This document shows, in pieces, positions 24,093 through 34,840 of a DNA stretch of 64,000 bases. The notes beneath the pieces are model-generated. The model ran no database searches. It worked only from the letters and a program-made list of their open reading frames with translations, and was not told the DNA's origin. The position numbers and the translations under genes were made by a program. Origin of the DNA: a virus; the IMG/VR virus record IMGVR_UViG_3300032238_000599, positions 64,001 through 128,000 of that record. The stretch is one strand, 5' to 3'. How positions within the stretch are numbered: position 1 is the stretch's first letter; each line of letters starts with the position of its first letter.

Positions 24093-25718
24093 ATGCCATT
24101 AGTAGGAACATTCGGTGGTAATACCACAGCAAAAGGTGTAGGTGGATATCACCCTGGTGCAGGACCAGTTGACACCACATCCAGCGCCGCGCAAGGTGTA
24201 ATTGGTACTACTACTGTATCAGGAAGTTTAAACGGTACAATTTATAACCTAAGTGCTAGTTCAGTTACTGGACAGCGTATTACACAAGACCCATTTTTTA
24301 TGGGTAACGTTACCTACAGTTTAGTAGGTGCAACTAGTGGAACAGCTAGTAATACTAACGGTACGAACGTCACTGTTAGTACAACTACCGGATTATATAC
24401 TGGACAAGCAATTTATTTTTCTGGTTACGGCACCGGCGCTTTAAATAGTGCAAGTACTAGTGCGGCTTTAACACCCGGGCAGTATTGGATTACAGCAATT
24501 GGCAGTGGCGTTATCAGCATTGCAAGAACAAGCGGGGGAACTGCTATTAACTTTGGCGGATCTACTACGTTAACTGGCGTTAACTGGACTACAGGTCTCC
24601 CTCCGGGATTTAGCTTTAACGCTTCGACTGGAACTATTAGTGGTAGTTTAACAATTAATGCAAATACAAACCCGGGTGAAAAAGCCGGTATTATTAATCA
24701 CACAGTTCCAACAACTGGTGCAAACAGTATTGGTACAGGACCGTATAATCCTAACGGCATTCAGCCAGCAACTTATCGTGTAACTGTCCGTGCCACAGAT
24801 AATAGTTATGCTAACAACTATTCAGAGCGTTACTACGATATTAACTTGTCAGTTCCATTTGCTTACAGACAAATTATTACTGTAGGATATACTCAAGCGG
24901 GATATGCTAATTCAAGTACATGGACCGACAGTCAAAAAACAGTTGGTGCTAATGATACAACAACTTTATTAGCCGGCAACCAAGAAGCAAGCCATAACTA
25001 TCAAATGAGCGCACATAACTATACACGTTCATTTACCTATGGAGCTTCTGGTACGCATTGCGGAGCGGCAAGTAACATTATTGCATTTAACATGAGAACA
25101 GAAACTAACAACACTTCGGGTTATACTAGAAGTTATCCAGTTAGCCAGAATAACTGTTCTACATTAATGAACGAATTTTATTATGCATGGATTTCAAGCC
25201 CAGCAACAGCTTCAGTGTATGAGCATAATATGACCACTGAAACAATCACCGGCGCAGTTCCAGGCATGAGTTTATCAAATCCTCTAGTTGGAGGAAACTG
25301 GGACGGTTACGGATGGTGGGGCCCAAGCGGCGCAACCATGAACTATGCTACACGTACTAACACATCCGGGCGCGGCGGCCAAGGCGGCGACGCTCAGTGT
25401 AAAGTTCTAATGAACAAACAACGTTACCAGTATGCGGGGCGTGAAGGCTGTCCAAATAGTAACTGGCGCCGCAGTGATATGACTACTGCTACAACAAGTG
25501 ATAGCGCACCAGGAAAGTACTATAACTCAGGTGAAGAAAATCACACAACTGTACAAGATTGGGGCTACTGTGTTGGATATTATGGTCCTGCTGGACACGT
25601 TAATACCAGTTACAAGTTTGTTTATGCTACAGAAGCCAACTCTGGATCTACTTCATCATTAGACTGTAAAGGTGGACACCCGGGAAACAGCTCAGCAACA
25701 GCGGCATGGCGAGATTAA
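24093..25718 (+). CDS. Putative fibre-tip adhesin/receptor-binding protein with Ig-like domain and C-terminal propeller-like region
   Basis: AGGAG SD; Gly-rich MPLVGTFGG start; LPPGFSFNASTGTISG and VTVRATD Ig-like motifs; C-terminal ~290 aa with kelch-like GY..GY repeats and several Cys. Confidence 0.55.
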   Translation: MPLVGTFGGNTTAKGVGGYHPGAGPVDTTSSAAQGVIGTTTVSGSLNGTIYNLSASSVTGQRITQDPFFMGNVTYSLVGATSGTASNTNGTNVTVSTTTGLYTGQAIYFSGYGTGALNSASTSAALTPGQYWITAIGSGVISIARTSGGTAINFGGSTTLTGVNWTTGLPPGFSFNASTGTISGSLTINANTNPGEKAGIINHTVPTTGANSIGTGPYNPNGIQPATYRVTVRATDNSYANNYSERYYDINLSVPFAYRQIITVGYTQAGYANSSTWTDSQKTVGANDTTTLLAGNQEASHNYQMSAHNYTRSFTYGASGTHCGAASNIIAFNMRTETNNTSGYTRSYPVSQNNCSTLMNEFYYAWISSPATASVYEHNMTTETITGAVPGMSLSNPLVGGNWDGYGWWGPSGATMNYATRTNTSGRGGQGGDAQCKVLMNKQRYQYAGREGCPNSNWRRSDMTTATTSDSAPGKYYNSGEENHTTVQDWGYCVGYYGPAGHVNTSYKFVYATEANSGSTSSLDCKGGHPGNSSATAAWRD

Positions 25719-25758: not shown

Positions 25759-26652
25759 ATGATCGAAAGAACCGATAGAATATTTGAGTATCATCAAAAA
25801 TTTCAATTAAGCAAACCAAATACTGACATATCAATGCTTTCAGAGCGAGAGGTAGAAATTATCAAAATCGCTATGAACAAAGAATGGACAAACCCTAAAT
25901 TTAAAATGAAGTGGTTTGTTGGTAACGCACAAGTTACAGCATTTGCACAGTTCCGTCAATTTTTAATGGAACTAAAAGCTAAAGAAGAAGCCATCGAAGA
26001 CTTAGAATATAACGTTGCCAAGTATGATATTGAACTTACTCGCAACGAACGTCTTATTGAAGAAAGCCCAGACGATTTAGAACGTAAACTAGCAGAGTTA
26101 GATATTTGGCGTTTAAAACGAGATAAAGAACGTACACAACGTATTCTTCAAAATTGGTATCTAGAGCGCCAGCAATTCTGTGACCTACTAGTAGAAATGT
26201 CAGGAACTGATGCAGTTAAACTGCCTGACGGTAGTGGTAGAACTTACTGGGATATTATTGGAACCGATGAAGAAGATGTCTATGAAAAAGTGTTATGGAC
26301 AAATCGTCTAGCAAAACAAGCGGCCTGCGACATTATGTTCTATGGGCGTATTAATACCGGTAACATGGATGCTATTTTACAAATGGATCCTGATCAACAG
26401 GCTGAAACATTTGCACTAGCAACTGACTTTAGCATTAAAATACAAACACATTTACATCAGTTACAAGCAAATGCCGAAGAAACTGCTAGACTTCCAGGTG
26501 CACCGTTTGATCTTAAAGAACTAAAAGCTCCTAATATTCCATTAGACGACGGTATAGCACAGAAATTAGATACTATCATGCCTCCCGCAACACCAATTAT
26601 GCCTGAGGATGATAAAGATGACAAGGATTTATTAAATGTATATAATGTTTGA
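25759..26652 (+). CDS. Hypothetical acidic, coiled-coil-rich protein (possible fibre assembly chaperone)
   Basis: 297 aa, GGAG SD, heptad-like ELKAKEEAIEDLEYNVAKYDIEL region. Function is inferred from position only. Confidence 0.6.
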   Translation: MIERTDRIFEYHQKFQLSKPNTDISMLSEREVEIIKIAMNKEWTNPKFKMKWFVGNAQVTAFAQFRQFLMELKAKEEAIEDLEYNVAKYDIELTRNERLIEESPDDLERKLAELDIWRLKRDKERTQRILQNWYLERQQFCDLLVEMSGTDAVKLPDGSGRTYWDIIGTDEEDVYEKVLWTNRLAKQAACDIMFYGRINTGNMDAILQMDPDQQAETFALATDFSIKIQTHLHQLQANAEETARLPGAPFDLKELKAPNIPLDDGIAQKLDTIMPPATPIMPEDDKDDKDLLNVYNV

Positions 26653-27202
26653 ATCCCAACACTGGGAAGATCAGCGAATTAAGTACTTTGGAAGTACCTG
26701 GTTTATGCAGATTGCACACATCGATGAAGCAGACGAAGCAAGCGTTGATATTACTCCACTAAAAGGTATTGTAATTTCAAAAGATCTAGCCTATTGCTTA
26801 AAGATGCATCATGCAACTGAAGGTAAAATCATTGTCCGTGAACTAAAAGAAATTATGGACTATGCAGACTATGAAAGCCCAACAGAATTAAACTACGGTG
26901 ATAATGGTGGTCGTAAAGATTATTACACGCTAACCGAACAGCAATTGGCTAACTCTATCCAGTTTATTAAAAATATGATGACTATTTTCATGGACAATTA
27001 TGGACATAGAAAAGATCCTGCTGCCTTAATGGAACTGAAAAAGCAAGTGATGAATTTGCCTGCTACCGGTACTGTAGAAAATTTAAACAATGCTCAAATG
27101 TTTATGAGTACATATTTTGAATATCAAACTCCATATACACAACATAGAGAAAAAACACCGTCAATTGGCATACGCTTTCAATTTGATGGTGAAGGTTGGT
27201 AA
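26636..27202 (+). CDS. Hypothetical protein
   Basis: 188 aa, AAGGA SD, overlaps the upstream gene by 17 nt (translational coupling). Confidence 0.6.
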   Translation: MYIMFESQHWEDQRIKYFGSTWFMQIAHIDEADEASVDITPLKGIVISKDLAYCLKMHHATEGKIIVRELKEIMDYADYESPTELNYGDNGGRKDYYTLTEQQLANSIQFIKNMMTIFMDNYGHRKDPAALMELKKQVMNLPATGTVENLNNAQMFMSTYFEYQTPYTQHREKTPSIGIRFQFDGEGW

Positions 27203-27271: not shown

Positions 27272-28954
27272 ATGAGAAAAATCTTTAGCGTACCATTAAA
27301 TCCAAAACTAAACGAACAACAATTTAACGAGTTTTATGAGTTTTTAAAAACTTATAAAGACTACATTCGTGACGTATATTTTACTAGCCGAATTGCTCCA
27401 TTTAAGCAAGACGCAATGGGTGATGTATTCTTTATTCAAGAAGATGAAAGCCAAGCAATTCATGCGGCACTACATATTCAGCGTACACTAGACATTCCTG
27501 TTAGCGCAACCTTTAACAATATCAATGTTCCGCCTACGCAACAAAACTTAGATTTGTTTATTAAAAACTTTAAACCATTGTATGATGCTGGGGTACGCAA
27601 TGCTACTATTCCACACACACATTGGATGGCAACAGGACAAATTAAACGTGCATTTCCAGACTTGTATGTTAAAAACACAATCCTACGTAATGTAACAACA
27701 GCACAAGAAGTAGTTAATCTTGCAGGCTATGGGTTTGACTACATTAACCTTGATAGAGATTTAATGCGTAACAGAGATGCACTATTACAAATTAAAAAAG
27801 CCAAGCAATATGTTAAAGATACAATGGGCAAAGACATTGCTATTAGCCTGTTAGCTAATGAGGGATGTGCTGGTGGTTGTTCAATGATGGATGAACACTA
27901 TCACTTTAACAACACTAGAGATAGTGCTCGTCCGCAATACTTTAACGATCCTATTAGTCGTGTTAGTTGCCCAAGTTGGGACGTACAAGATCCCGCTATC
28001 TTCTTAAAACGTGCAAACTTTACTCCATGGAGAGCAGATTGGGACGAGTTTATCGATGAGCTAGGCATTGATAGTATTAAAATGCATGGTAGAGAAGCAC
28101 CTACTCGCCTATACGAAACTATGGATATGATTGAACGTTATGCGGCTGGAGAAGAATTACTGTACCCTACATTTGAACAATACCTAGAAGACACTAATCT
28201 AGCAGAAAAGCCTATTACTGTATGGCGTGAAAAAATTAAAAATTGTAAGTTTGAATGTTGGGATTGTCAATATTGTGATAAAGTCTACAAAGCCAAGTCA
28301 GATATAGAAGCTAGTGAACTAGTTAAACACGTAGCAGCCTGCATCGAACAAAGTGGTGTACCTACAATTAAGTTAGATATTCCAGGATTAACTAGCATTC
28401 GTGTACAATCATTGCTTAATAGATTAGCGCAAGGTGTAGATACTTACTTAGAAGTGGGCACAGCATTAGGCGCAACATTCTGCGCGGTAATCAAAGACAA
28501 TCCAATTACTGCTATTGCTATTGATAACTGGGTTGACAATGTACAACCTCGTAATGAAGGGCGTGTTGCTATGCCACAAAACGACATTCAAGTATTTGCA
28601 GAGAATGTACGCAAGTATCAAGGCAATAGTAAAATTACAGTATTGAATGGTAATTGTTTTAATACAGATGTTACACCATTTGCAGGACAAGTTAAGATGT
28701 TTTTCTATGATGGCCCTCATGAAGTTGAGGCATGTAAGCTAGCAATGACACACTTTGCTCCTGCGCTAGCAGAAGAAGCTATTGTAATTTTTGATGATGC
28801 CAACTGGAATAATGTAGTTGAAGGTGCAAAGCAAGGCATTGAAGCCGCAGGACTAAAAGTCAGCTATGAAAAAATACTATTAAATGATGAAGAAGATGCT
28901 AACGCTTGGTGGAACGGTTTGTATATTGCAGTCGTGAGGAAACCTAATGATTAA
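27272..28954 (+). CDS. Peptidase-U32-family-like Fe-S protein fused to a class I SAM methyltransferase (Methyltransf_24-like)
   Basis: N-terminal: INLDRDL, LLANEGCAGGC, DSIKMHGRE (cf. U32 LKIEGR), CKFECWDCQYC. C-terminal: YLEVGTALGAT, FFYDGPH, IFDDANW. Confidence 0.65.
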   Translation: MRKIFSVPLNPKLNEQQFNEFYEFLKTYKDYIRDVYFTSRIAPFKQDAMGDVFFIQEDESQAIHAALHIQRTLDIPVSATFNNINVPPTQQNLDLFIKNFKPLYDAGVRNATIPHTHWMATGQIKRAFPDLYVKNTILRNVTTAQEVVNLAGYGFDYINLDRDLMRNRDALLQIKKAKQYVKDTMGKDIAISLLANEGCAGGCSMMDEHYHFNNTRDSARPQYFNDPISRVSCPSWDVQDPAIFLKRANFTPWRADWDEFIDELGIDSIKMHGREAPTRLYETMDMIERYAAGEELLYPTFEQYLEDTNLAEKPITVWREKIKNCKFECWDCQYCDKVYKAKSDIEASELVKHVAACIEQSGVPTIKLDIPGLTSIRVQSLLNRLAQGVDTYLEVGTALGATFCAVIKDNPITAIAIDNWVDNVQPRNEGRVAMPQNDIQVFAENVRKYQGNSKITVLNGNCFNTDVTPFAGQVKMFFYDGPHEVEACKLAMTHFAPALAEEAIVIFDDANWNNVVEGAKQGIEAAGLKVSYEKILLNDEEDANAWWNGLYIAVVRKPND

Positions 28955-30473
28955 TAAAGTCAGACGTATTACAATATTTGGTGGTGGAACTAGTGGTTGG
29001 TTAAGTGCCGCATACTTGTCACGCAACCTAAAGATACCTGCAGAAATTACACTAATTGAAGATACTAGTCTAGGACCCATTGGTGTAGGAGAAGGCACAC
29101 AGCCTATGACTGCTCGGTTTCTACATGAGTGTGGAATTGAACCCAAAGACTGGTTAAAAGACAGCAATGCTGTGTTCAAATATGGTGTTGAACTTATTGG
29201 ATGGAATGACGAGCCTTACTTTGTAGACAATGATGTGCCTATTAACTGTATTGTAGGCAGTAAGTTGTTTACCAGCGATTACTTTATTGACAAACCCTAC
29301 AGCGAAGTTGCCGCGTGGCACCCTGCTTATCAACTAGCCAAGGCAAATGTGTCTAGCAAGTTTGACGAATACCTCGACGTTAATCACGGTAGTGGACCCG
29401 AAAGTTATGGTGCTGTACACTTTGATGCTTATGCTATCCTACGTAGTATTAAAAACATCTTAGGCGACAGTATCAAACACATTGACACAAAGATTACAGA
29501 CATTAGACAAGACGTCTACGGCATTACAGAACTTGTAGGTGTCGATGGAACCAAGTATACTGCTGACTTGTTTGTTGATTGCAGTGGATTTCAAAGTCTG
29601 TTACTAGAAAAAACACTAAAAAGCCCCTTCACAAGTTACAGTAACATTTTACCTTGTGACAGCGCAGTAGTATTTCAGACACAGTATAAGGATCCGCAGA
29701 AAGAATGTCATCCATATACTAAAGCAACTACAATGAACGCTGGATGGCGTTTTACTATTCCCACATTTAAACGTGTAGGTAACGGGTATGTTTACAGTAG
29801 CAAACACATTACACCTGAGCAAGCTGAACAAGAAATGCGTGAAGCGTTAGGTGAGTTTGAAGCACCAGCAAGACATTTAAAAATGAAGTGTGGCGTACAC
29901 AAAGAAACAGCAGTTAAAAATGTCTGTGCTGTAGGACTTGCCGCTGGATTTATTGAACCCTTAGAAGCAACAGGCATTACATTTACTACAGCCGCAGTTA
30001 AATCGTTAACAGAATTACTAAACATGACTAACAATGTTTGGAATGATTTCTGCAGACAAAACATCAATCGCGGGTTTTACGAAATGACGACTGAGATTCT
30101 AGCATTTGTATGGGCACATTACCATTTCAGTAGCCGCAATGACACTGAGTTTTGGCAAGACATACGTAAGCAAGAGTTAAAAAATGCACCCAAAGAAGTT
30201 CAAGAAATACTAAGTTTCTTTTTGCCACGACCCCAGAAATATATCTTTATAAATCCTAGTAGTATGTTCTGTAACTTTCAGTGGTTTACCATGTTACATG
30301 CAGGTGGCGCATACAAGAATGTTGCTAGCGATCTAAGTGAAAAACAAAAAGCCTATACTAAGTATTTCTTAGATAGCCACACAGCTAGAGTAAATCTAGC
30401 TAAAGAAACATTCCCTAATCAATATGACTATTTAGAAACATGGTACACTGATTGGGACTTATCGGAGTTTTAA
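28947..30473 (+). CDS. Flavin-dependent halogenase, tryptophan halogenase (PrnA/RebH) family
   Basis: GGGTSG FAD motif, PIGVGEGT, catalytic-Lys context NAVFKYG, DLFVDCSGF, GWRFTIP, GFIEPLEATG. Confidence 0.85.
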   Translation: MINKVRRITIFGGGTSGWLSAAYLSRNLKIPAEITLIEDTSLGPIGVGEGTQPMTARFLHECGIEPKDWLKDSNAVFKYGVELIGWNDEPYFVDNDVPINCIVGSKLFTSDYFIDKPYSEVAAWHPAYQLAKANVSSKFDEYLDVNHGSGPESYGAVHFDAYAILRSIKNILGDSIKHIDTKITDIRQDVYGITELVGVDGTKYTADLFVDCSGFQSLLLEKTLKSPFTSYSNILPCDSAVVFQTQYKDPQKECHPYTKATTMNAGWRFTIPTFKRVGNGYVYSSKHITPEQAEQEMREALGEFEAPARHLKMKCGVHKETAVKNVCAVGLAAGFIEPLEATGITFTTAAVKSLTELLNMTNNVWNDFCRQNINRGFYEMTTEILAFVWAHYHFSSRNDTEFWQDIRKQELKNAPKEVQEILSFFLPRPQKYIFINPSSMFCNFQWFTMLHAGGAYKNVASDLSEKQKAYTKYFLDSHTARVNLAKETFPNQYDYLETWYTDWDLSEF

Positions 30474-30914
30474 ATGTTAAAAAAATTAACCACAACTAGC
30501 TATGAAATTTACGAAGTTGAGCAACGTGAGTCCACTGACGATAACTATCTAGCAGTAAAAATTTGGAAAGATAGACAAAAGCTACGCCGCTGGCTTATTG
30601 GCTTAATGAACGACCGAGAAGTTATTCTTACTTGGCGCGACAGCGGACAAGAAGTAACCGCAGTAGCTACCCGTAAGTTAGGCAAATATGATATTGCACC
30701 AGTATTACCATCAGATGACGACATGCCTAAGATTAAAGATATTGTTAATCGAGAAGAAGTAGAAGAAATTCGTCACATAGCGTTTTATTCTATGCCTGAC
30801 AAGCAAATTATTGCAGTTTATTTAGACGACATTAGTCACTTTATTGTGTCTAATGAAGGCTTAAAAGAGCTAACAAATAAGCTAGTTGCAGCCGAACCTT
30901 TAATCACAGTATGA
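30474..30914 (+). CDS. Hypothetical protein
   Basis: 146-aa ORF abutting the upstream gene and overlapping the downstream one; GGAG SD. Confidence 0.55.
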   Translation: MLKKLTTTSYEIYEVEQRESTDDNYLAVKIWKDRQKLRRWLIGLMNDREVILTWRDSGQEVTAVATRKLGKYDIAPVLPSDDDMPKIKDIVNREEVEEIRHIAFYSMPDKQIIAVYLDDISHFIVSNEGLKELTNKLVAAEPLITV

Positions 30915-32095
30915 AAAGACGATTAGGAATCATCGGCGGCGGCACCGCAGGTATAATGAGTTTATGCCATTTTCTAACTTATTTGGACAGCGAGTGGGAA
31001 GTTGTCTTAGTCTACGATCCTACAGCAGATATATTTGATGCACCAACTAGTGCTACTCCGGGATTTGTATCTGTCCTAGAAAGAGCATTTAATTTTAGTT
31101 TATTAGATACTTTGGAACCTCTCAATGCTACACTAAAGTTTGGTTCCATTTGGAAAAATTGGAGGCAGCAAACATTTAATTTGCCTAACATTGGAGGCAA
31201 TGCGGCTATACATTTTGATAGTCTTAAATTTAGAGACTATGTACTACCTAAATTAGAAGAGCATTGGCCTAATAAATTTAAATCTATCACAGGACATCTT
31301 GACAGTCTTACAAATAAAGAAACACATGTTAGTGCCGTAGTCAACGGTGTTGAACACGTATTCAATTATGCTATGGACTGTCGTGGCGCACCTAATGACT
31401 GGGCGGACTATGAAGTATTAACTGATATGCCAGTTAATCATTCTTTTGTTCACAGTAAGAAATCGCCAGGTGACTGGACATATTCTGGGCAGAATGCAAC
31501 TCCTTATGGTTGGATGTTTGAAATTCCCTTAGGTGATAGGCAATGCTATGGATATCATTACAATGATAATATCACTAGCAAAGAAGATGCATTGGCAAAT
31601 TTTGCAGAAATTATCAACGTCCCAGTTGAAGAATTGACAGTAACAGAATATCAATATAAAAGCTATTATGCAAACAAAGTGTTTGACGGCAGGATAATGA
31701 AGAACGGGAATCGAGCTGTATTCTTTGAACCTATTAGTGCAAACTCTGTTTACATTTTTGATCAAGCCAACAGAATTTTTTATGCTTATTTGGCTAACAA
31801 TATCAAAACCCCTGAAATTGTAAATCGAGAGTTTGTAAAAGTAGCAAATGATTTGCGAGAATTAATTTGCTATTACTATCACGGTGGTAGTATATACGAC
31901 ACTAAATTCTGGGACTATGCTAAAGAAGTTACCGGCAACGTTATTAGAAAAAGTGAAACAATTAAAGAAATTAGTTCCCAGTGTAAAAATTGGGTAGATA
32001 AACAAGCACCAGTTTATGCCCCAACTTGGTTTTTTACAGGTATACAACTTTACCATTTAGACAAAAATTTTGGCTACGGGTATTTTTCACAATAA
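30911..32095 (+). CDS. Second, shorter and divergent tryptophan-halogenase-like flavoprotein
   Basis: GGGTAG, NATLKFG, MDCRG, GWMFEIP, FFEPISANS. Confidence 0.75.
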   Translation: MKRRLGIIGGGTAGIMSLCHFLTYLDSEWEVVLVYDPTADIFDAPTSATPGFVSVLERAFNFSLLDTLEPLNATLKFGSIWKNWRQQTFNLPNIGGNAAIHFDSLKFRDYVLPKLEEHWPNKFKSITGHLDSLTNKETHVSAVVNGVEHVFNYAMDCRGAPNDWADYEVLTDMPVNHSFVHSKKSPGDWTYSGQNATPYGWMFEIPLGDRQCYGYHYNDNITSKEDALANFAEIINVPVEELTVTEYQYKSYYANKVFDGRIMKNGNRAVFFEPISANSVYIFDQANRIFYAYLANNIKTPEIVNREFVKVANDLRELICYYYHGGSIYDTKFWDYAKEVTGNVIRKSETIKEISSQCKNWVDKQAPVYAPTWFFTGIQLYHLDKNFGYGYFSQ

Positions 32096-32098
32096 GTA
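32093..32098 (+). promoter_or_regulatory. Late promoter variant TAAGTA
   Basis: AATAAGTA lies 5 nt before the ATG at 32104, the same spacing as TAAATA before 43740 and 47412. Confidence 0.45.
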
Positions 32099-32103
32099 AT
32101 CAT

Positions 32104-32721
32104 ATGACATATCCACTAACCAACGACACTATAATGGCAACAGCATTAATGCCACCTTGGGCAAAACTAGACAATGTGTTTACTACAGAGGAACTAGATA
32201 GAATCATAGCCTACTGCTCACAGTTTCAATTAGATGCTGGCGTAATTGGTAGTTACAATAAACAGACTGTAGATAAAGAACTACGCAAAAGTCAAATTAA
32301 AATGCTAGAGCCCAATAGCGAAACACAATGGATTTTTGAAAGACTAAATGCGGCAATATTTGATGCTAATAATTTCTTTTTTAGATTTAACATAGTAGGT
32401 TACGACTTCTTACAGTACACAGAGTACAGCACTTTCGGTGATAACTACGGTTTCCACACTGATATGAGCTACGGCAAAGACGGTCGCGCTGAACCACACG
32501 CTCATAGAAAACTAAGTTTCATTCTAGTACTAGCTGAAGAAACTGAATACCAGGGCGCAGAGTTAGAGTTCATGGTATCCACAGACGAAAAAGTTAAATG
32601 CGTCCAAAAAAAAGGTGACTTAATTTTATTCCCATCTTGGATACTACATCGCATTACTCCTATTATTAGTGGCAAACGTAAATCATTAGTTGGTTGGGTA
32701 ACAGGACCTAAATTCAAATGA
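32104..32721 (+). CDS. 2OG-Fe(II) oxygenase (prolyl-hydroxylase/PKHD-like)
   Basis: HTD (HxD), RKLSF, FPSWILHRITPI, RKSLVGW. Start moved to ATG 32104 to avoid overlap with the upstream gene. Confidence 0.85.
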   Translation: MTYPLTNDTIMATALMPPWAKLDNVFTTEELDRIIAYCSQFQLDAGVIGSYNKQTVDKELRKSQIKMLEPNSETQWIFERLNAAIFDANNFFFRFNIVGYDFLQYTEYSTFGDNYGFHTDMSYGKDGRAEPHAHRKLSFILVLAEETEYQGAELEFMVSTDEKVKCVQKKGDLILFPSWILHRITPIISGKRKSLVGWVTGPKFK

Positions 32722-33314
32722 CACAAATTAAACTTGTTCCTTTATTTCATTCTGATCTTTTTATCTTAGAAAACGTAGGTACTCGAGAACAAATCGATGC
32801 TCTAGTAAAACAAATTGCCGCCGAGAAAAAATCAGGCGCGGTAACACAGCCTCGCTCCAATGAAGGGTGCTGGCGAAGCAGTAGTATGTGGACTGATATT
32901 GATTGGTTATACAAACGTATTGAAGAATTATTACAAACTGCTATAGACCACTACACTAAAATTGATAATGATTTTAAACCAGGTCCTGGAGTTACAGTAG
33001 AACAATGGACAAATGTAAATGATCCTGGATCAAGAAATGTGTTTCACGCTCATAAGTCGGCAGCATTTTCAGTGTGCTACTACATGCAAGCATCTGGGAC
33101 CGGAGCATTACGGTTTGTAAATCCTAGTAACATTCTTAATGACTGCAATCACATAAGTCCCTTTACAAGAGGATTTCCTTACTATCCTAATGATAGAGAT
33201 TTAGTGTTGTGGCCAGCATGGCTTCCGCACGAAGTAGAACCAAACTTATCAAAAAAACAACGCATTAATATGGCGTTTGACATAACTTTTAAAGACACTA
33301 CATCTCCTCAATGA
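32718..33314 (+). CDS. Putative 2OG-Fe(II) oxygenase (TIGR02466-like)
   Basis: WTNVN...HAH...SVCYY, WPAWLPHEVEPN, RINMAFD. Confidence 0.8.
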   Translation: MTQIKLVPLFHSDLFILENVGTREQIDALVKQIAAEKKSGAVTQPRSNEGCWRSSSMWTDIDWLYKRIEELLQTAIDHYTKIDNDFKPGPGVTVEQWTNVNDPGSRNVFHAHKSAAFSVCYYMQASGTGALRFVNPSNILNDCNHISPFTRGFPYYPNDRDLVLWPAWLPHEVEPNLSKKQRINMAFDITFKDTTSPQ

Positions 33315-33358: not shown

Positions 33359-34399
33359 ATGGACTTCATCACAACTGTCCTGTTAAAGGACATTTCGTAT
33401 CTATGGATGATATTCTTCATTATGATCACTGCCGGACTAGCAAAAGAGTATCAACTCTTTGCCCCGGCATTTGCCTATGTAAGAAATACATTCCGTAGCA
33501 ATAAGTTCGTTGTAGTACTCTTAAGCGCAATTGGAGGAGTTCTTCCAATTGAAGGCCGAGTCACTGTGTCAGCAGGTTTGCTTGATACAGTAGCACCTAA
33601 GGAAGGGCATGGCCGCGAGAAGTTGGGTATTGTTGATTACTTGAGTACGCACCACTATTATCTGTGGAGCCCTCTTGAGAAAACAGTTATCCTACCTATT
33701 GCGGCGTTTGGTCTAACTTACGGTGCGTGGCTTGGCTTAATTGCACCCTTGTTAGTTGTCAGTTTTGTATTCATCGCTTGGTACATTTGGTCACAAGTAC
33801 ATGATGAAGAAATTACAATTACGCCCGGAAACTTTAAACTATCGGCAGTTTTACGCAATGTTTTACCAATGTTTATAGCCATTGGTTTTTACATCTATGA
33901 AAGCAAGTGGATGATTGCCTGTTTTGGTTTCCTAACACTATACTACATCATCATTAGCCAACAATGGAATATTAAGAAATTACTTTCTTATGTTCGATGG
34001 GATGTGTTAGCATGGGTAGGTGCAGTTATCGCATTAGGTAACTACATGAAAACTTATGATAGCGCATGGCAAACTATGCTAAAAGGAAGTATGCTCGACC
34101 CGCATACATTCGTAGGTATGGTAGCTATATCAGCTATTGGTTTCTTAGCTAGCTTCTTAATGGGTAGCAGTGGTAAATTTATTGCAATTGCCGTATTAAT
34201 GTCTCAAGTCTTCGGTGTTGAGTACTTTTTATGGTTCTTTGCTATTGACTTTGCTGGCTACTTAATTAGTCCTACACACAAATGTGTTATGATCGGTAAT
34301 CGATATTTTGGTACACCTGTGGGAACTTACTATAAAGCACTAGGAACCTGGGGAGGATTGTTGCTAGCAACTGCTGGCGCAATTACTTTCTTAAATTAA
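33359..34399 (+). CDS. Polytopic membrane protein, probable ion-transporter superfamily (DUF401/permease-like)
   Basis: Many hydrophobic segments in two halves; SP motifs (LWSPLEK, GYLISPTHKC) in equivalent positions; AAGGAG SD. Confidence 0.6.
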   Translation: MDFITTVLLKDISYLWMIFFIMITAGLAKEYQLFAPAFAYVRNTFRSNKFVVVLLSAIGGVLPIEGRVTVSAGLLDTVAPKEGHGREKLGIVDYLSTHHYYLWSPLEKTVILPIAAFGLTYGAWLGLIAPLLVVSFVFIAWYIWSQVHDEEITITPGNFKLSAVLRNVLPMFIAIGFYIYESKWMIACFGFLTLYYIIISQQWNIKKLLSYVRWDVLAWVGAVIALGNYMKTYDSAWQTMLKGSMLDPHTFVGMVAISAIGFLASFLMGSSGKFIAIAVLMSQVFGVEYFLWFFAIDFAGYLISPTHKCVMIGNRYFGTPVGTYYKALGTWGGLLLATAGAITFLN

Positions 34400-34840
34400 G
34401 TCGATTAAATCAAATACAGTCTGAAGTTTTGTTCGGATTGTTTTGTTTGAGAAACTGTTTCGAAGCCCCTGATGAAGGGGCTTTGGCGCATAATCAATTG
34501 TGCTCCATGCCCATGCACAATGTTCTTCGCTTAGTACAGGAATAAATTCATCTTGTATGACGCACAAGTAAGTATGAAAATTAAACACTCTATCATTACT
34601 CACAAAAGTTTCAAGTGGAATAGTTTTTAAAATTTTAGGATGGCTACCAATTTCTTCAGAGACTTCACGTTGTAACCCCTGCCAAGGTGTTTCACCTTCA
34701 ACGTTAGTGCCACCAACTAGCCCCCAAGTTCCCTTATGTTTGCCGTTGTTTTTTTGAAGTAATAAAAATCTTCCAGTAGACTTTGCGTAGAATAACGCAC
34801 CACTGCAAACAATTTGATCTGTTATAATTCTAGGGACCAT
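34391..34840 (-). CDS. NUDIX hydrolase
   Basis: Nudix box GGTNVEGETPWQGLQREVSEEIG. Confidence 0.85.
   Translation of the reverse strand: MVPRIITDQIVCSGALFYAKSTGRFLLLQKNNGKHKGTWGLVGGTNVEGETPWQGLQREVSEEIGSHPKILKTIPLETFVSNDRVFNFHTYLCVIQDEFIPVLSEEHCAWAWSTIDYAPKPLHQGLRNSFSNKTIRTKLQTVFDLIDLI

What the first reader, a model, noticed from the sequence alone, without database searches (positions are those of the whole stretch)
27272..28954. U32-family Fe-S protein fused to a SAM methyltransferase: possible hydroxylate-then-methylate enzyme
Seen: the N-terminal ~340 aa has U32-like motifs with Cys clusters EGCAGGC, VSCPSW and an extra CxxxCxxCxxC (CKFECWDCQYC). The C-terminal ~190 aa (from ~28370) has MTase motifs EVGTALG, YDGPH and DD. 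Established: characterised 'peptidase U32' proteins (RlhA, TrhP, UbiU/UbiV) are Fe-S, O2-independent hydroxylases, and their products are often O-methylated by a separate enzyme. Inference: this fusion could perform both steps on one substrate and may carry a second metal cluster. It would give an O2-independent route alongside the O2-dependent oxygenases next door.
Basis: partly seen in the sequence, partly recalled or inferred. Interest (0 to 1): 0.75.

Follow-up and report, generated by a model that had tools for sequence, protein, structure and literature searches.

The report
Phage U32-like enzyme fused to O-methyltransferase
A gene common in marine cyanobacterial viruses joins a very divergent, cysteine-rich relative of the oxygen-independent 'U32' iron-sulfur hydroxylases to an O-methyltransferase-like domain, and it always travels in a small conserved gene cassette, so it probably converts a C-H into a methoxy group on a target that is still unknown.

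Summary

N-terminal domain: Pfam's U32 model does not match it. Even so:
- Profile-profile comparison gives 95% (E 2.5e-8) against RlhA-type U32 proteins. Nine negative controls give <1%.
- The alignment places C199, C203 and C233 on three of the four U32 [4Fe-4S] ligands, and KMHGR on U32's KIEGR.
- The extra C-x3-C-x2-C-x2-C is invariant in 68 distant relatives.

C-terminal domain: a Methyltransf_24 fold, structurally closest to Mg-dependent O-methyltransferases.

Coupling and context:
- In another uncultured virus lineage the two halves are adjacent, overlapping genes, which argues for coupling.
- The gene sits in a conserved cassette: fibre-like p1417, unknown p1409 and unk246, often a DUF401 membrane protein, and a radical SAM gene in the split lineage.
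- One contig fuses radical SAM/SPASM to the U32-like domain.

Not shown: metal binding, chemistry or substrate. Other agents of this scan reached the same reading on other genomes.

Verdict: a new, virus-borne variant of a known enzyme kind.

The parts
27272..28954 (+). Whole gene: 560-aa U32-like / O-methyltransferase-like fusion. The stop overlaps the start of the next ORF (28947) by 8 nt.
   Evidence: full-length homologs in 121 phage records and over 1800 metagenomic proteins; phrog_1458, E 4.6e-170
27272..28276 (+). N-terminal domain (res 1-335): (beta/alpha)8 barrel of U32 type plus the C-terminal Cys4 tail. Invariant residues sit at the C-terminal ends of the strands: D34, N82, P129, K134, T136, D161, R162, E197, K270, G273, R274.
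27866..27970 (+). Loop after strand 7 carrying C199-x3-C203 ... E208-H209 ... C233. This is the putative metal (Fe-S) site, equivalent to the U32 cluster-binding loop.
   Evidence: 67/68 conservation of each Cys; hhalign places C199, C203 and C233 on U32 Cys1, Cys2 and Cys4, while the Cys3 position is S/G
28079..28093 (+). K270-M-H-G273-R274 at strand 8, the counterpart of the U32 hallmark KIEGR.
   Evidence: K 67/68, G 66/68, R 67/68 here; K/G/R 53/69 in the U32 set; aligned by hhalign
28244..28276 (+). C325-x3-C329-x2-C332-x2-C335: an invariant Cys4 element at the end of the N-domain, a candidate second metal site (Fe-S or Zn). In stand-alone forms it is the C-terminus of the protein.
   Evidence: 68/68 in A2; also present in the tandem paralogs and the rSAM fusion
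28277..28381 (+). Helical linker (res 336-370) between the two domains.
   Evidence: lower pLDDT (56-72) and helices 334-340 and 347-361
28382..28951 (+). C-terminal class I SAM methyltransferase domain (Methyltransf_24). Motif I is E394-x-G396-x-x-x-G400. D418 and the acidic residues D480, D508 and D509 are invariant.
25759..26652 (+). p1409 (phrog_1409): a 297-aa helical protein of unknown function and the constant upstream partner of the U32-like gene.
   Evidence: adjacent or near in the window, P-HM2, Syn19, S-CAM4, RP12, 24 viral contigs and 32 of 51 metagenome loci
26636..27202 (+). unk246: a 188-aa unknown protein and a cassette member.
   Evidence: weak phmmer match (2e-5) and own-HMM match to the 246-aa cassette gene; present in 23 of 51 metagenome loci
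24093..25718 (+). p1417 (phrog_1417, 'sericin-like'): a 541-aa Thr/Ser/Gly/Asn-rich, fibre-like protein with a Cys-containing C-terminal part. It opens the cassette and is present in 1-3 tandem copies elsewhere.
33359..34399 (+). DUF401 / TIGR00529-family membrane protein (346 aa), a frequent but facultative cassette member.
   Evidence: Pfam PF04165 E 2.2e-10; orthologs next to the U32-like gene in RP12 and the split lineage and in 29 of 51 metagenome loci; absent from the P-HM2 and Syn19 genomes

Best explanation
The gene encodes a bifunctional tailoring enzyme.

Inferred mechanism:
1. The N-terminal domain is a virus-specific, very divergent member of the U32 superfamily. Its characterised members (RlhA, TrhP, UbiU/UbiV) are [4Fe-4S]-containing, O2-independent, prephenate-dependent hydroxylases of aromatic or heteroaromatic carbons.
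2. It most likely binds a metal cluster through C199, C203 and C233 on the loop after strand 7. These are homologous to three of the four U32 ligands. The fourth ligand would come from elsewhere, or the site would stay open.
3. A second metal centre would sit on the invariant C-terminal Cys4 element.
4. The N-domain would hydroxylate a ring carbon of its substrate.
5. The fused Mg-dependent O-methyltransferase-like domain would then methylate the new hydroxyl with SAM, so the net conversion is C-H to C-OCH3.

The enzyme works within a conserved cassette (p1417 fibre-like protein, p1409, unk246, often DUF401, and radical SAM in the split lineage). The substrate is therefore more likely a peptide or protein (for example p1417 or a fibre) or a small aromatic molecule handled by that cassette than tRNA.

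Shown: domain architecture, fold, distant homology, residue conservation, genetic coupling, cassette conservation.

Inferred: metal binding, hydroxylation, O- rather than N- or C-methylation, order of steps, substrate.
For: Fold:
- 5D88 (U32 Mk0906) is rank 1 by Foldseek.

Homology:
- hhalign of the 68-sequence family profile gives 60% (E 8e-5) against 69 U32 proteins, 95.2% (E 2.5e-8) against long RlhA-type proteins, and 75% against TrhP-type.
- A reversed profile and seven unrelated profiles give <=0.9%.
- Matching conserved positions occur at strands 2, 3, 5, 6 and 8, including KxxGR = KIEGR.
- The nearest ESM Atlas clusters carry PF01136 in 20% of members.

Cysteines:
- C199, C203 and C233 align with U32 Cys1, Cys2 and Cys4.
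- In UbiU/UbiV those Cys bind [4Fe-4S] and are needed for function (PMC6747719).

Methyltransferase domain:
- Pfam PF13578 matches above its cut-off.
- D480, D508 and D509 are invariant.

Coupling:
- The two halves are fused in cyanomyoviruses and in 38 of 51 metagenome loci.
- They are separate, overlapping adjacent genes in 24 viral contigs.

Precedent:
- U32 TrhP1/2 and the O-MT TrmR share an operon, and TrhO-TrmR fusions exist (PMC6599085).
- Prephenate is the O donor for U32 enzymes (PMC10990095).

Context pointing to peptide, protein or small-molecule tailoring:
- A radical SAM gene sits directly upstream in the split lineage.
- One protein fuses radical SAM + SPASM to this domain.
- The cassette starts with fibre-like proteins.
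Against: - Pfam's U32 model does not match this protein, any of 68 relatives, or anything in the virus record.
- UbiU and UbiV sub-profiles give no signal.
- The canonical CX6CX15CX3/4C motif is replaced by CX3C...C with only three aligned Cys. The site could therefore bind Zn or a different cluster.
- No U32 enzyme has yet been reconstituted in vitro (PMC10990095), so 'hydroxylase' rests on genetics in distant relatives.
- RP12 has the U32-like gene without a nearby methyltransferase, so methylation is not obligatory.
- The substrate is unknown.
- Association with p1417 may reflect shared ancestry of T4-like genomes rather than function, because RP12 lacks it.
Confidence: 0.5

Rival explanations
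1. It is a nucleic-acid modification enzyme of the TrhP/RlhA + TrmR type. The U32-like domain would hydroxylate C5 of a pyrimidine in tRNA or rRNA (or phage DNA), and the methyltransferase domain would make the 5-methoxy base (mo5U-like).
For: - By profile, the nearest U32 branches are the RNA hydroxylases RlhA (95%) and TrhP (75%), not UbiU/UbiV.
- The only PDB sequence picked up by the family profile is TrmR/YrrM (5ZW3), though at a non-significant E of 0.45.
- JGI names several homologs 'predicted O-methyltransferase YrrM'.
- The operon and fusion precedents are in PMC6599085.
- phrog_2675 'DNA methyltransferase' matches the C-domain at E 1e-9.
Against: - Pfam detects no Peptidase_U32_C domain or other RNA-binding module.
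- The constant neighbours are fibre-like and unknown proteins, a membrane protein and radical SAM/SPASM enzymes, not translation genes.
- There are no tRNA genes in the window.
- The methyltransferase domain belongs to Methyltransf_24 rather than TrmR's family, and its similarity to TrmR is not better than to many small-molecule O-MTs.
Confidence: 0.15
2. The N-terminal barrel is a metal-dependent enzyme with a different chemistry, for example a hydrolase, peptidase or lyase acting on host envelope or on fibre maturation (as U32 proteins were first annotated), or a redox partner of the radical SAM enzyme. The methyltransferase would act on an unrelated position.
For: - The U32 Cys motif is altered, and a 3-Cys plus Glu/His site (E197, E208, H209 at >=62/68) also fits Zn.
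- The gene lies in the tail-fibre module, next to giant fibre proteins.
- The next viral structural neighbour is annotated 'Peptidase' (Escherichia phage OLB35).
Against: - No characterised U32 member is a proven peptidase on the evidence of the papers read here, which treat the family as hydroxylases.
- The homology signal covers the catalytic strand ends shared with RlhA/TrhP.
- Tight fusion or overlap with an O-MT-like domain is most simply explained by a hydroxyl being produced for it.
Confidence: 0.2
3. It is mainly a structural or assembly factor of the virion (a fibre chaperone or virion-associated protein), with degenerate enzyme domains.
For: Its position is between tail-fibre genes and the neck/sheath genes. 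In S-CAM4 the neighbouring genes are annotated 'virion structural protein' and 'minor coat protein'.
Against: - Residues on the barrel's catalytic face are near-invariant, as are seven Cys, SAM motif I and the acidic residues, across relatives down to 23% identity. That is the pattern of active enzymes.
- Stand-alone homologs occur in cellular-type contexts.
Confidence: 0.05

Closest known systems
U32 superfamily (Pfam PF01136): solved member Mk0906 (PDB 5D88); characterised members RlhA (23S rRNA ho5C2501) and TrhP/TrhP1-TrhP2 (tRNA ho5U34)
   Same: - Profile homology to the RlhA and TrhP types.
- Shared conserved positions at the strand ends, including KxxGR/KIEGR.
- Cys after strand 7 at U32 ligand positions 1, 2 and 4.
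   Different: - Below Pfam detection.
- CX3C instead of CX6C, and the third ligand Cys is missing.
- An added invariant C-x3-C-x2-C-x2-C tail.
- No Peptidase_U32_C or RlhA C-terminal domain.
- Mostly viral: not found in 401 sampled Pseudomonadota genomes, though a P0305-like stand-alone group sits in cellular-type contexts.
- Fused to a methyltransferase, or in one contig to radical SAM/SPASM.
UbiU-UbiV (O2-independent ubiquinone hydroxylases) with UbiG
   Same: Same superfamily, the same hydroxylate-then-O-methylate logic, and Fe-S ligands on the loop after strand 7. Tandem paralogs in L207 and L213 recall the UbiU-UbiV heterodimer.
   Different: No profile signal to the UbiU or UbiV sub-families (0.6% and 0.4%). 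No UbiT/SCP2 partner was seen. The partner proteins here (p1409, unk246, DUF401) are unrelated.
B. subtilis yrrMNO operon (TrmR O-methyltransferase + TrhP1/TrhP2) and TrhO-TrmR fusions of oomycetes and diatoms
   Same: A hydroxylase and a catechol-O-MT-like methyltransferase are genetically coupled (by operon or by fusion) to make a methoxy group.
   Different: The methyltransferase here is Methyltransf_24 with a D...DD acidic pattern and is not a TrmR ortholog (E 0.45). The fusion partner is U32-like, not the rhodanese TrhO. The context is a phage fibre-region cassette, not translation genes.
Cation-dependent class I O-methyltransferases (COG4122/CCoAOMT-COMT type; TylF/MycF type)
   Different: Short (about 190 aa), lacks the N-terminal helices of the COMT type, only 10-18% identity, acceptor unknown.

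Membership tests
Peptidase_U32 (PF01136) superfamily | Match to the Pfam family model above its gathering score | tested here: not met
   No PF01136 hit for the protein (E<=1), for any of 68 relatives, or anywhere in the virus record at E<=10. The same model finds four genes in E. coli.
Peptidase_U32 (PF01136) superfamily | U32-type (beta/alpha)8 barrel | tested here: met
   [not shown]
Peptidase_U32 (PF01136) superfamily | Sequence-profile homology to bona fide U32 proteins | tested here: met
   hhalign gives 95.2% (E 2.5e-8) vs RlhA-type, 75% vs TrhP-type and 60% vs all 69. Nine negative controls give <=0.9%.
Peptidase_U32 (PF01136) superfamily | KIEGR motif at strand 8 | tested here: met
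   K270-x-x-G273-R274 is >=66/68 in the family and is aligned to KIEGR.
Peptidase_U32 (PF01136) superfamily | Four conserved Cys in the CX6CX15CX3/4C arrangement (PMC6747719) | tested here: not met
   The pattern is C199-x3-C203-x29-C233. The alignment puts these on Cys1, Cys2 and Cys4, and the Cys3 position is S/G. A separate Cys4 motif lies about 90 residues downstream.
Peptidase_U32 (PF01136) superfamily | Binds a [4Fe-4S] cluster; prephenate-dependent, O2-independent hydroxylation | not testable with these tools
   Needs anaerobic biochemistry.
Cation-dependent class I SAM O-methyltransferases (Methyltransf_24 / COG4122 / TylF-like) | Pfam Methyltransf_24 match and Rossmann fold with SAM motif I and the acidic residue after strand 2 | tested here: met
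   [not shown]
Cation-dependent class I SAM O-methyltransferases (Methyltransf_24 / COG4122 / TylF-like) | Acidic metal-binding triad | tested here: inconclusive
   D480, D508 and D509 are invariant and align with FIDA / tDN of TrmR, but only in a non-significant HMM alignment (E 0.45). Equivalence to the MycF-type D...DD ligands rests on my own recollection.
Cation-dependent class I SAM O-methyltransferases (Methyltransf_24 / COG4122 / TylF-like) | Methylates oxygen (not N or C) | not testable with these tools
   [not shown]
TrhP/TrmR tRNA mo5U34 pathway | TrhP-type architecture (U32 + Peptidase_U32_C) and a TrmR-orthologous methyltransferase | tested here: not met
   Pfam finds no U32_C domain. 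TrmR similarity is E 0.45 by sequence and is tied with many others by structure.
Radical SAM superfamily | CX3CX2C after strand 1 of the barrel and a Radical_SAM Pfam match | tested here: not met
   C325-x3-C329-x2-C332 has the right spacing but lies after the barrel at the domain's C-terminus. There is no PF04055 hit. Genuine radical SAM genes are separate neighbours or N-terminal fusions.

The most novel reading that the evidence does not exclude
This would be the first viral representative of the prephenate-dependent, O2-independent U32 hydroxylases. It would be rewired with a 3-Cys site plus a new Cys4 centre and fused to an O-methyltransferase. It would post-translationally methoxylate aromatic residues of virion fibre-like proteins (p1417 or the giant fibres). 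It would do so as part of a multi-enzyme virion-tailoring cassette (radical SAM, p1409, unk246, DUF401; in this phage also halogenase-like and 2OG-Fe(II) enzymes).
Probability: 0.2. Interest if true: 0.85.

Novelty: new variant of a known kind. Interest (0 to 1): 0.62.

Why it matters
- U32 enzymes are the only known hydroxylases that take their oxygen from an organic donor (prephenate), and none has been reconstituted in vitro.
- This is a compact, abundant branch, mostly virus-borne. It is found in 126 isolated phage genomes and thousands of ocean metagenome proteins. It has an altered ligand set and natural fusions to an O-methyltransferase or to radical SAM/SPASM.
- It offers new material for working out the chemistry. 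It also implies that marine phages run an O2-independent C-H oxidation inside oxygen-evolving hosts.
- If the substrate is a virion protein, this would be an undescribed kind of phage particle decoration with possible effects on host range. If it is RNA or DNA, it would be a new phage nucleic-acid modification.
- The conserved, entirely uncharacterised partners (p1409, unk246, DUF401) become directly testable.

Tried and rejected
- **Complex prediction** of the N-domain with p1409: no verdict. It counts neither for nor against binding.
- E. coli TrhP as query returned only 89-100% identical enterobacterial genes, useless for diversity. P0139 found nothing in viral contigs.
- **Single-sequence comparisons** with UbiU and UbiV gave <1%. 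phmmer and hmmsearch against PDB sequences found nothing significant for the N-domain. UbiU itself has no PDB relative by sequence.
- **Whole-protein Foldseek** was dominated by the methyltransferase domain, so the N-domain was folded alone.
- **Model coordinates** are not exposed, so Cys-Cys distances were not measured.
- **Partners:** Pfam, NCBIfam, PHROGs and ESM Atlas gave no function for p1409, unk246, unk315 or p1417. The radical SAM partner could not be sub-typed.
- **Chorismate mutase:** none found in five phage records. This is uninformative, because hosts make prephenate.
- **Literature:** DUF401 papers were uninformative. The 5D88 paper is not in the library. No paper on viral U32 hydroxylases was found. 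Sullivan et al. 2010 list T4-GC351-354 only as hypothetical proteins, and I found no virion-proteomics entry for them.
- **Radical SAM reading** of the C-x3-C-x2-C spacing was considered and rejected: wrong position, no Pfam match.
- **Family profile vs bacteria:** it found nothing in 401 Pseudomonadota genomes at E<=1e-5. This means 'not found in those searched', not absent from bacteria.
Full report
**What is there.** The window is part of a 145-kb uncultured virus record with T4-like myovirus structural genes. These include the gp15 sheath stabiliser, the sheath, giant fibre-like ORFs and a NUDIX gene. ORF 27272-28954 (+) encodes 560 aa.

The gene is real and common:
- Full-length homologs (42-46% identity) occur in 121 isolated cyanomyovirus records, including P-HM2, Syn19, S-CAM4, S-RIM2, S-RIM12, S-RIM14 and P-SSM4. 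All are annotated 'hypothetical'.
- More than 1800 metagenomic proteins match, all carrying only Pfam Methyltransf_24.
- PHROGs places it in phrog_1458 (full length) and phrog_36869 (N-domain alone). Both are of unknown function.
- Sullivan et al. 2010 list it as T4-GC354, a hypothetical protein travelling with GC351-353 (PMC3037559 supplement).

**The N-terminal domain.** Pfam's Peptidase_U32 model does not match this protein, any of 68 relatives, or anything else in the virus record. NCBIfam and PDB sequence searches are also empty.

An exhaustive HMMER search with residues 1-370 found 276 clusters at 50% identity. Many are stand-alone proteins of 330-380 aa. With 68 of them as the alignment (A2), AlphaFold2 gave a confident model (pLDDT 93, pTM 0.89) of eight beta/alpha units.

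Fold evidence:
- Foldseek against the PDB put 5D88, 'U32 peptidase Mk0906', first.
- The same gap appeared in a search of all 48,161 representative chains that does not depend on Foldseek: 17.0 against 12.7.
- In BFVD, after fragments of the family itself, the next hit is a 'Peptidase' of Escherichia phage OLB35 (E 1e-10), far above generic TIM barrels.

Sequence homology. I built a U32 reference set of 69 proteins from E. coli and 60 other Pseudomonadota genomes.
- hhalign of A2 against it gave 60% (E 8.4e-5) over 131 columns.
- A column-reversed U32 profile, a reversed query, and seven unrelated profiles from the same loci gave <=0.9% and E >= 0.06.
- Split by type, the long RlhA-like proteins gave 95.2% (E 2.5e-8, 129 columns) and the TrhP type 75% (E 2.4e-5). 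UbiU and UbiV gave nothing.
- The ESM Atlas feature search independently placed the domain next to clusters in which 20% of members carry PF01136. That is a lead only.

The aligned conserved positions all lie at the C-terminal ends of the strands:

| Strand | This family | U32 |
|---|---|---|
| 2 | D34-x-Y/F | D22-x-V-Y25 |
| 3 | N82 | N66 |
| 5 | P129...K134-x-T136 | P108...H113-x-S115 |
| 6 | L160-x-R162-x-L164 | L140-x-R142-x-L144 |
| 8 | K270-x-x-G273-R274 | K-I-E-G-R |

I conclude that the domain is a genuine but very divergent member of the U32 superfamily. It is nearest the RNA-hydroxylase branches and outside the reach of the Pfam model.

**The cysteines.** In UbiU and UbiV, four Cys on and after the loop following strand 7 bind a [4Fe-4S] cluster and are required for function. 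Most U32 families share CX6CX15CX3/4C (PMC6747719).
- Here the pattern after strand 7 is C199-x3-C203-x29-C233. Each Cys is 67/68 conserved, with E197, E208 and H209 at >=62/68.
- With E. coli RlhA as reference, hhalign (77%, E 2e-5, 149 columns) puts C199 and C203 on U32 Cys1 and Cys2, with a three-residue deletion. It puts C233 on Cys4. The Cys3 position is Ser/Gly.
- The additional C325-x3-C329-x2-C332-x2-C335 is 68/68 invariant. It forms the C-terminal end of stand-alone proteins and is kept in tandem paralogs and in a radical SAM fusion.
- Its spacing resembles the radical SAM motif, but it lies after the barrel and there is no Radical_SAM match.

Whether the seven Cys form one or two metal sites, and whether these are Fe-S or Zn, could not be tested. 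No coordinates are exposed.

**The C-terminal domain.**
- Pfam Methyltransf_24 matches residues 393-509 above its cut-off.
- The invariant residues are SAM motif I (E394, G396, G400), D418, D480 and D508-D509.
- Structural neighbours are cation-dependent O-methyltransferases: 5x7f at 15.9, MeT1 at 15.6, SafC at 15.5, TomG at 15.1, COMT at 15.0, MycF at 14.9 and TrmR at 14.3. tRNA m1A58 N-methyltransferases follow close behind at about 14.
- The family profile's only PDB sequence match is TrmR/YrrM, at a non-significant E of 0.45.

So the domain is O-MT-like, but the acceptor atom is unproven.

**Genetic coupling and context.**
- In viral contigs L138-L162 the N-domain (341-346 aa) and a 220-232 aa Methyltransf_24 protein are separate genes with overlapping ends. 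The separate methyltransferase is homologous to this gene's C-domain (E 2.5e-23). This split/fused pair argues that the two activities work together.
- HMMs built from the neighbours show a cassette in 24 viral contigs: p1417 x3, p1409, unk246, radical SAM, U32-like, MT24, unk315, DUF401.
- The cyanomyoviruses (this window, P-HM2, Syn19, S-CAM4) have p1417, p1409, unk246 and the fused gene.
- Among 51 metagenome loci of 5 kb or more, 38 have the fusion, 32 have p1409, 29 have DUF401, 29 have p1417 and 23 have unk246. In six loci the order is rearranged (p1417, unk315, DUF401, p1409, fusion) but the same genes remain together.
- Ralstonia jumbo phage RP12, unrelated to T4-like phages, keeps p1409, the U32-like gene and DUF401 in a row, without p1417 or a methyltransferase.
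- DUF401 is facultative: it is absent from the complete P-HM2 and Syn19 genomes and distant in S-CAM4.
- p1409, unk246, unk315 and p1417 have no known family.
- In this window the two halogenase-like genes, a 146-aa ORF and two 2OG-Fe(II) oxygenase genes (28947-33314) lie between the fusion and DUF401. They have no counterparts in the related loci compared, so they look like a lineage-specific insertion.

Other architectures:
- Contig L213 has a 740-aa protein with radical SAM (CX3CX2C at residue 15), SPASM and the U32-like domain with all its hallmarks. A second rSAM/SPASM gene and a stand-alone U32-like gene sit beside it.
- L207 has three tandem U32-like paralogs between a giant ORF and SapC/TPR-glycosyltransferase genes.
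- A P0305-like stand-alone group sits among cellular-type genes (GGDEF-EAL, SPFH, NAD-dependent ligase) with no cassette partners.
- The family profile found nothing in 401 sampled Pseudomonadota genomes, most of which carry canonical U32 genes.

**Interpretation.**
- The best-supported reading is a two-step tailoring enzyme: U32-type, metal-cluster-dependent hydroxylation of a ring carbon, then SAM-dependent O-methylation.
- This mirrors TrhP1/2 plus TrmR, and the natural TrhO-TrmR fusions (PMC6599085), as well as UbiU/V plus UbiG. Prephenate is the likely O donor by family analogy (PMC10990095).
- The profile affinity to RlhA/TrhP favours a heteroaromatic, RNA-like substrate. The constant company of fibre-like proteins, radical SAM/SPASM enzymes and a membrane protein favours a peptide, protein or small molecule, as do the lack of any RNA-binding module and the lack of tRNA genes.
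- I weight the generic hydroxylate-then-methylate reading at 0.5. The RNA/DNA-specific version gets 0.15, a different chemistry for the barrel 0.2, and a merely structural role 0.05.

**Comparison with earlier notes of this scan.** Two follow-up reports on other genomes (e1-5521378, e1-5894080) reached the same overall reading.
- The 'one unknown helper gene' of e1-5521378 corresponds to p1409, which I confirmed independently.
- Its statement that bacterial cousins sit in natural-product clusters is only partly borne out here. There are rSAM/SPASM fusions and neighbours in L213, but ordinary cellular neighbours in L170.

No published description of viral U32-type hydroxylases was found.

**Limits.** No chemistry, metal content or substrate was or could be established. 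Many of the viral and metagenome loci are closely related to each other, so the number of independent lineages supporting the cassette is small: cyanomyovirus-like fused forms, including a rearranged sub-lineage; the split lineage; and RP12.

Noticed in passing
window 28947-33314: Two Trp-halogenase-family genes (508 aa, E 6e-96; 394 aa, E 1e-25), a 146-aa ORF and two 2OG-Fe(II) oxygenase genes sit between the fusion gene and DUF401. None has a counterpart in the related cassettes compared (P-HM2, Syn19, S-CAM4, RP12, L138-L141), so they look like a lineage-specific insertion of further tailoring enzymes.
   Followed up: partly
L213 7533-9755 (metagenome contig Ga0256843_1001220): A 740-aa natural fusion of radical SAM (CX3CX2C at residue 15), a SPASM domain and the U32-like domain (386-731), with ExCxxxC, KLHGR and the Cys4 tail intact. 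It lies beside a second rSAM/SPASM gene and a stand-alone U32-like gene.
   Followed up: partly
L207 6358-10706 (contig Ga0256826_1000065): Three tandem U32-like paralogs (536, 345 and 565 aa), all with the hallmark motifs. They follow a >2100-aa ORF and precede a SapC-family gene and a TPR + glycosyltransferase-9 gene. This recalls the heteromeric UbiU-UbiV and TrhP1-TrhP2 pairs.
   Followed up: no
L153 8735-8825 and L154 8727-8819: ARAGORN calls an unusually long (91-93 nt) tRNA-Arg(CCG) directly after the separate methyltransferase gene, overlapping the start of the unk315 ORF. It may be a false positive.
   Followed up: no
L163-L167 (viral contigs): A 400-436 aa variant of the U32-like domain with an internal insertion occurs without any of the cassette partners within 7 kb.
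   Followed up: no
window 1089-22808: Three giant ORFs (1339, 2672 and 2961 aa) precede the cassette. The first carries Laminin_G_3 and DUF1565 domains, so these are fibre- or adhesin-like proteins.
   Followed up: no
phage record HQ337021.1 (P-SSM3) 114207-115493: The P-SSM3 homolog matches only residues 4-424, so its methyltransferase domain may be truncated, frameshifted or replaced.
   Followed up: no
window 34391-34840 (-): A NUDIX hydrolase gene on the opposite strand directly follows the DUF401 gene and precedes the gp15-like sheath stabiliser.
   Followed up: no
BFVD entry A0A3G3MCS7 (Escherichia phage OLB35): A 269-aa 'Peptidase' is the closest viral structure outside the family (Foldseek E 9.6e-11, TMt 0.73, 19% identity). 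This suggests other phage-borne U32-like barrels.
   Followed up: no
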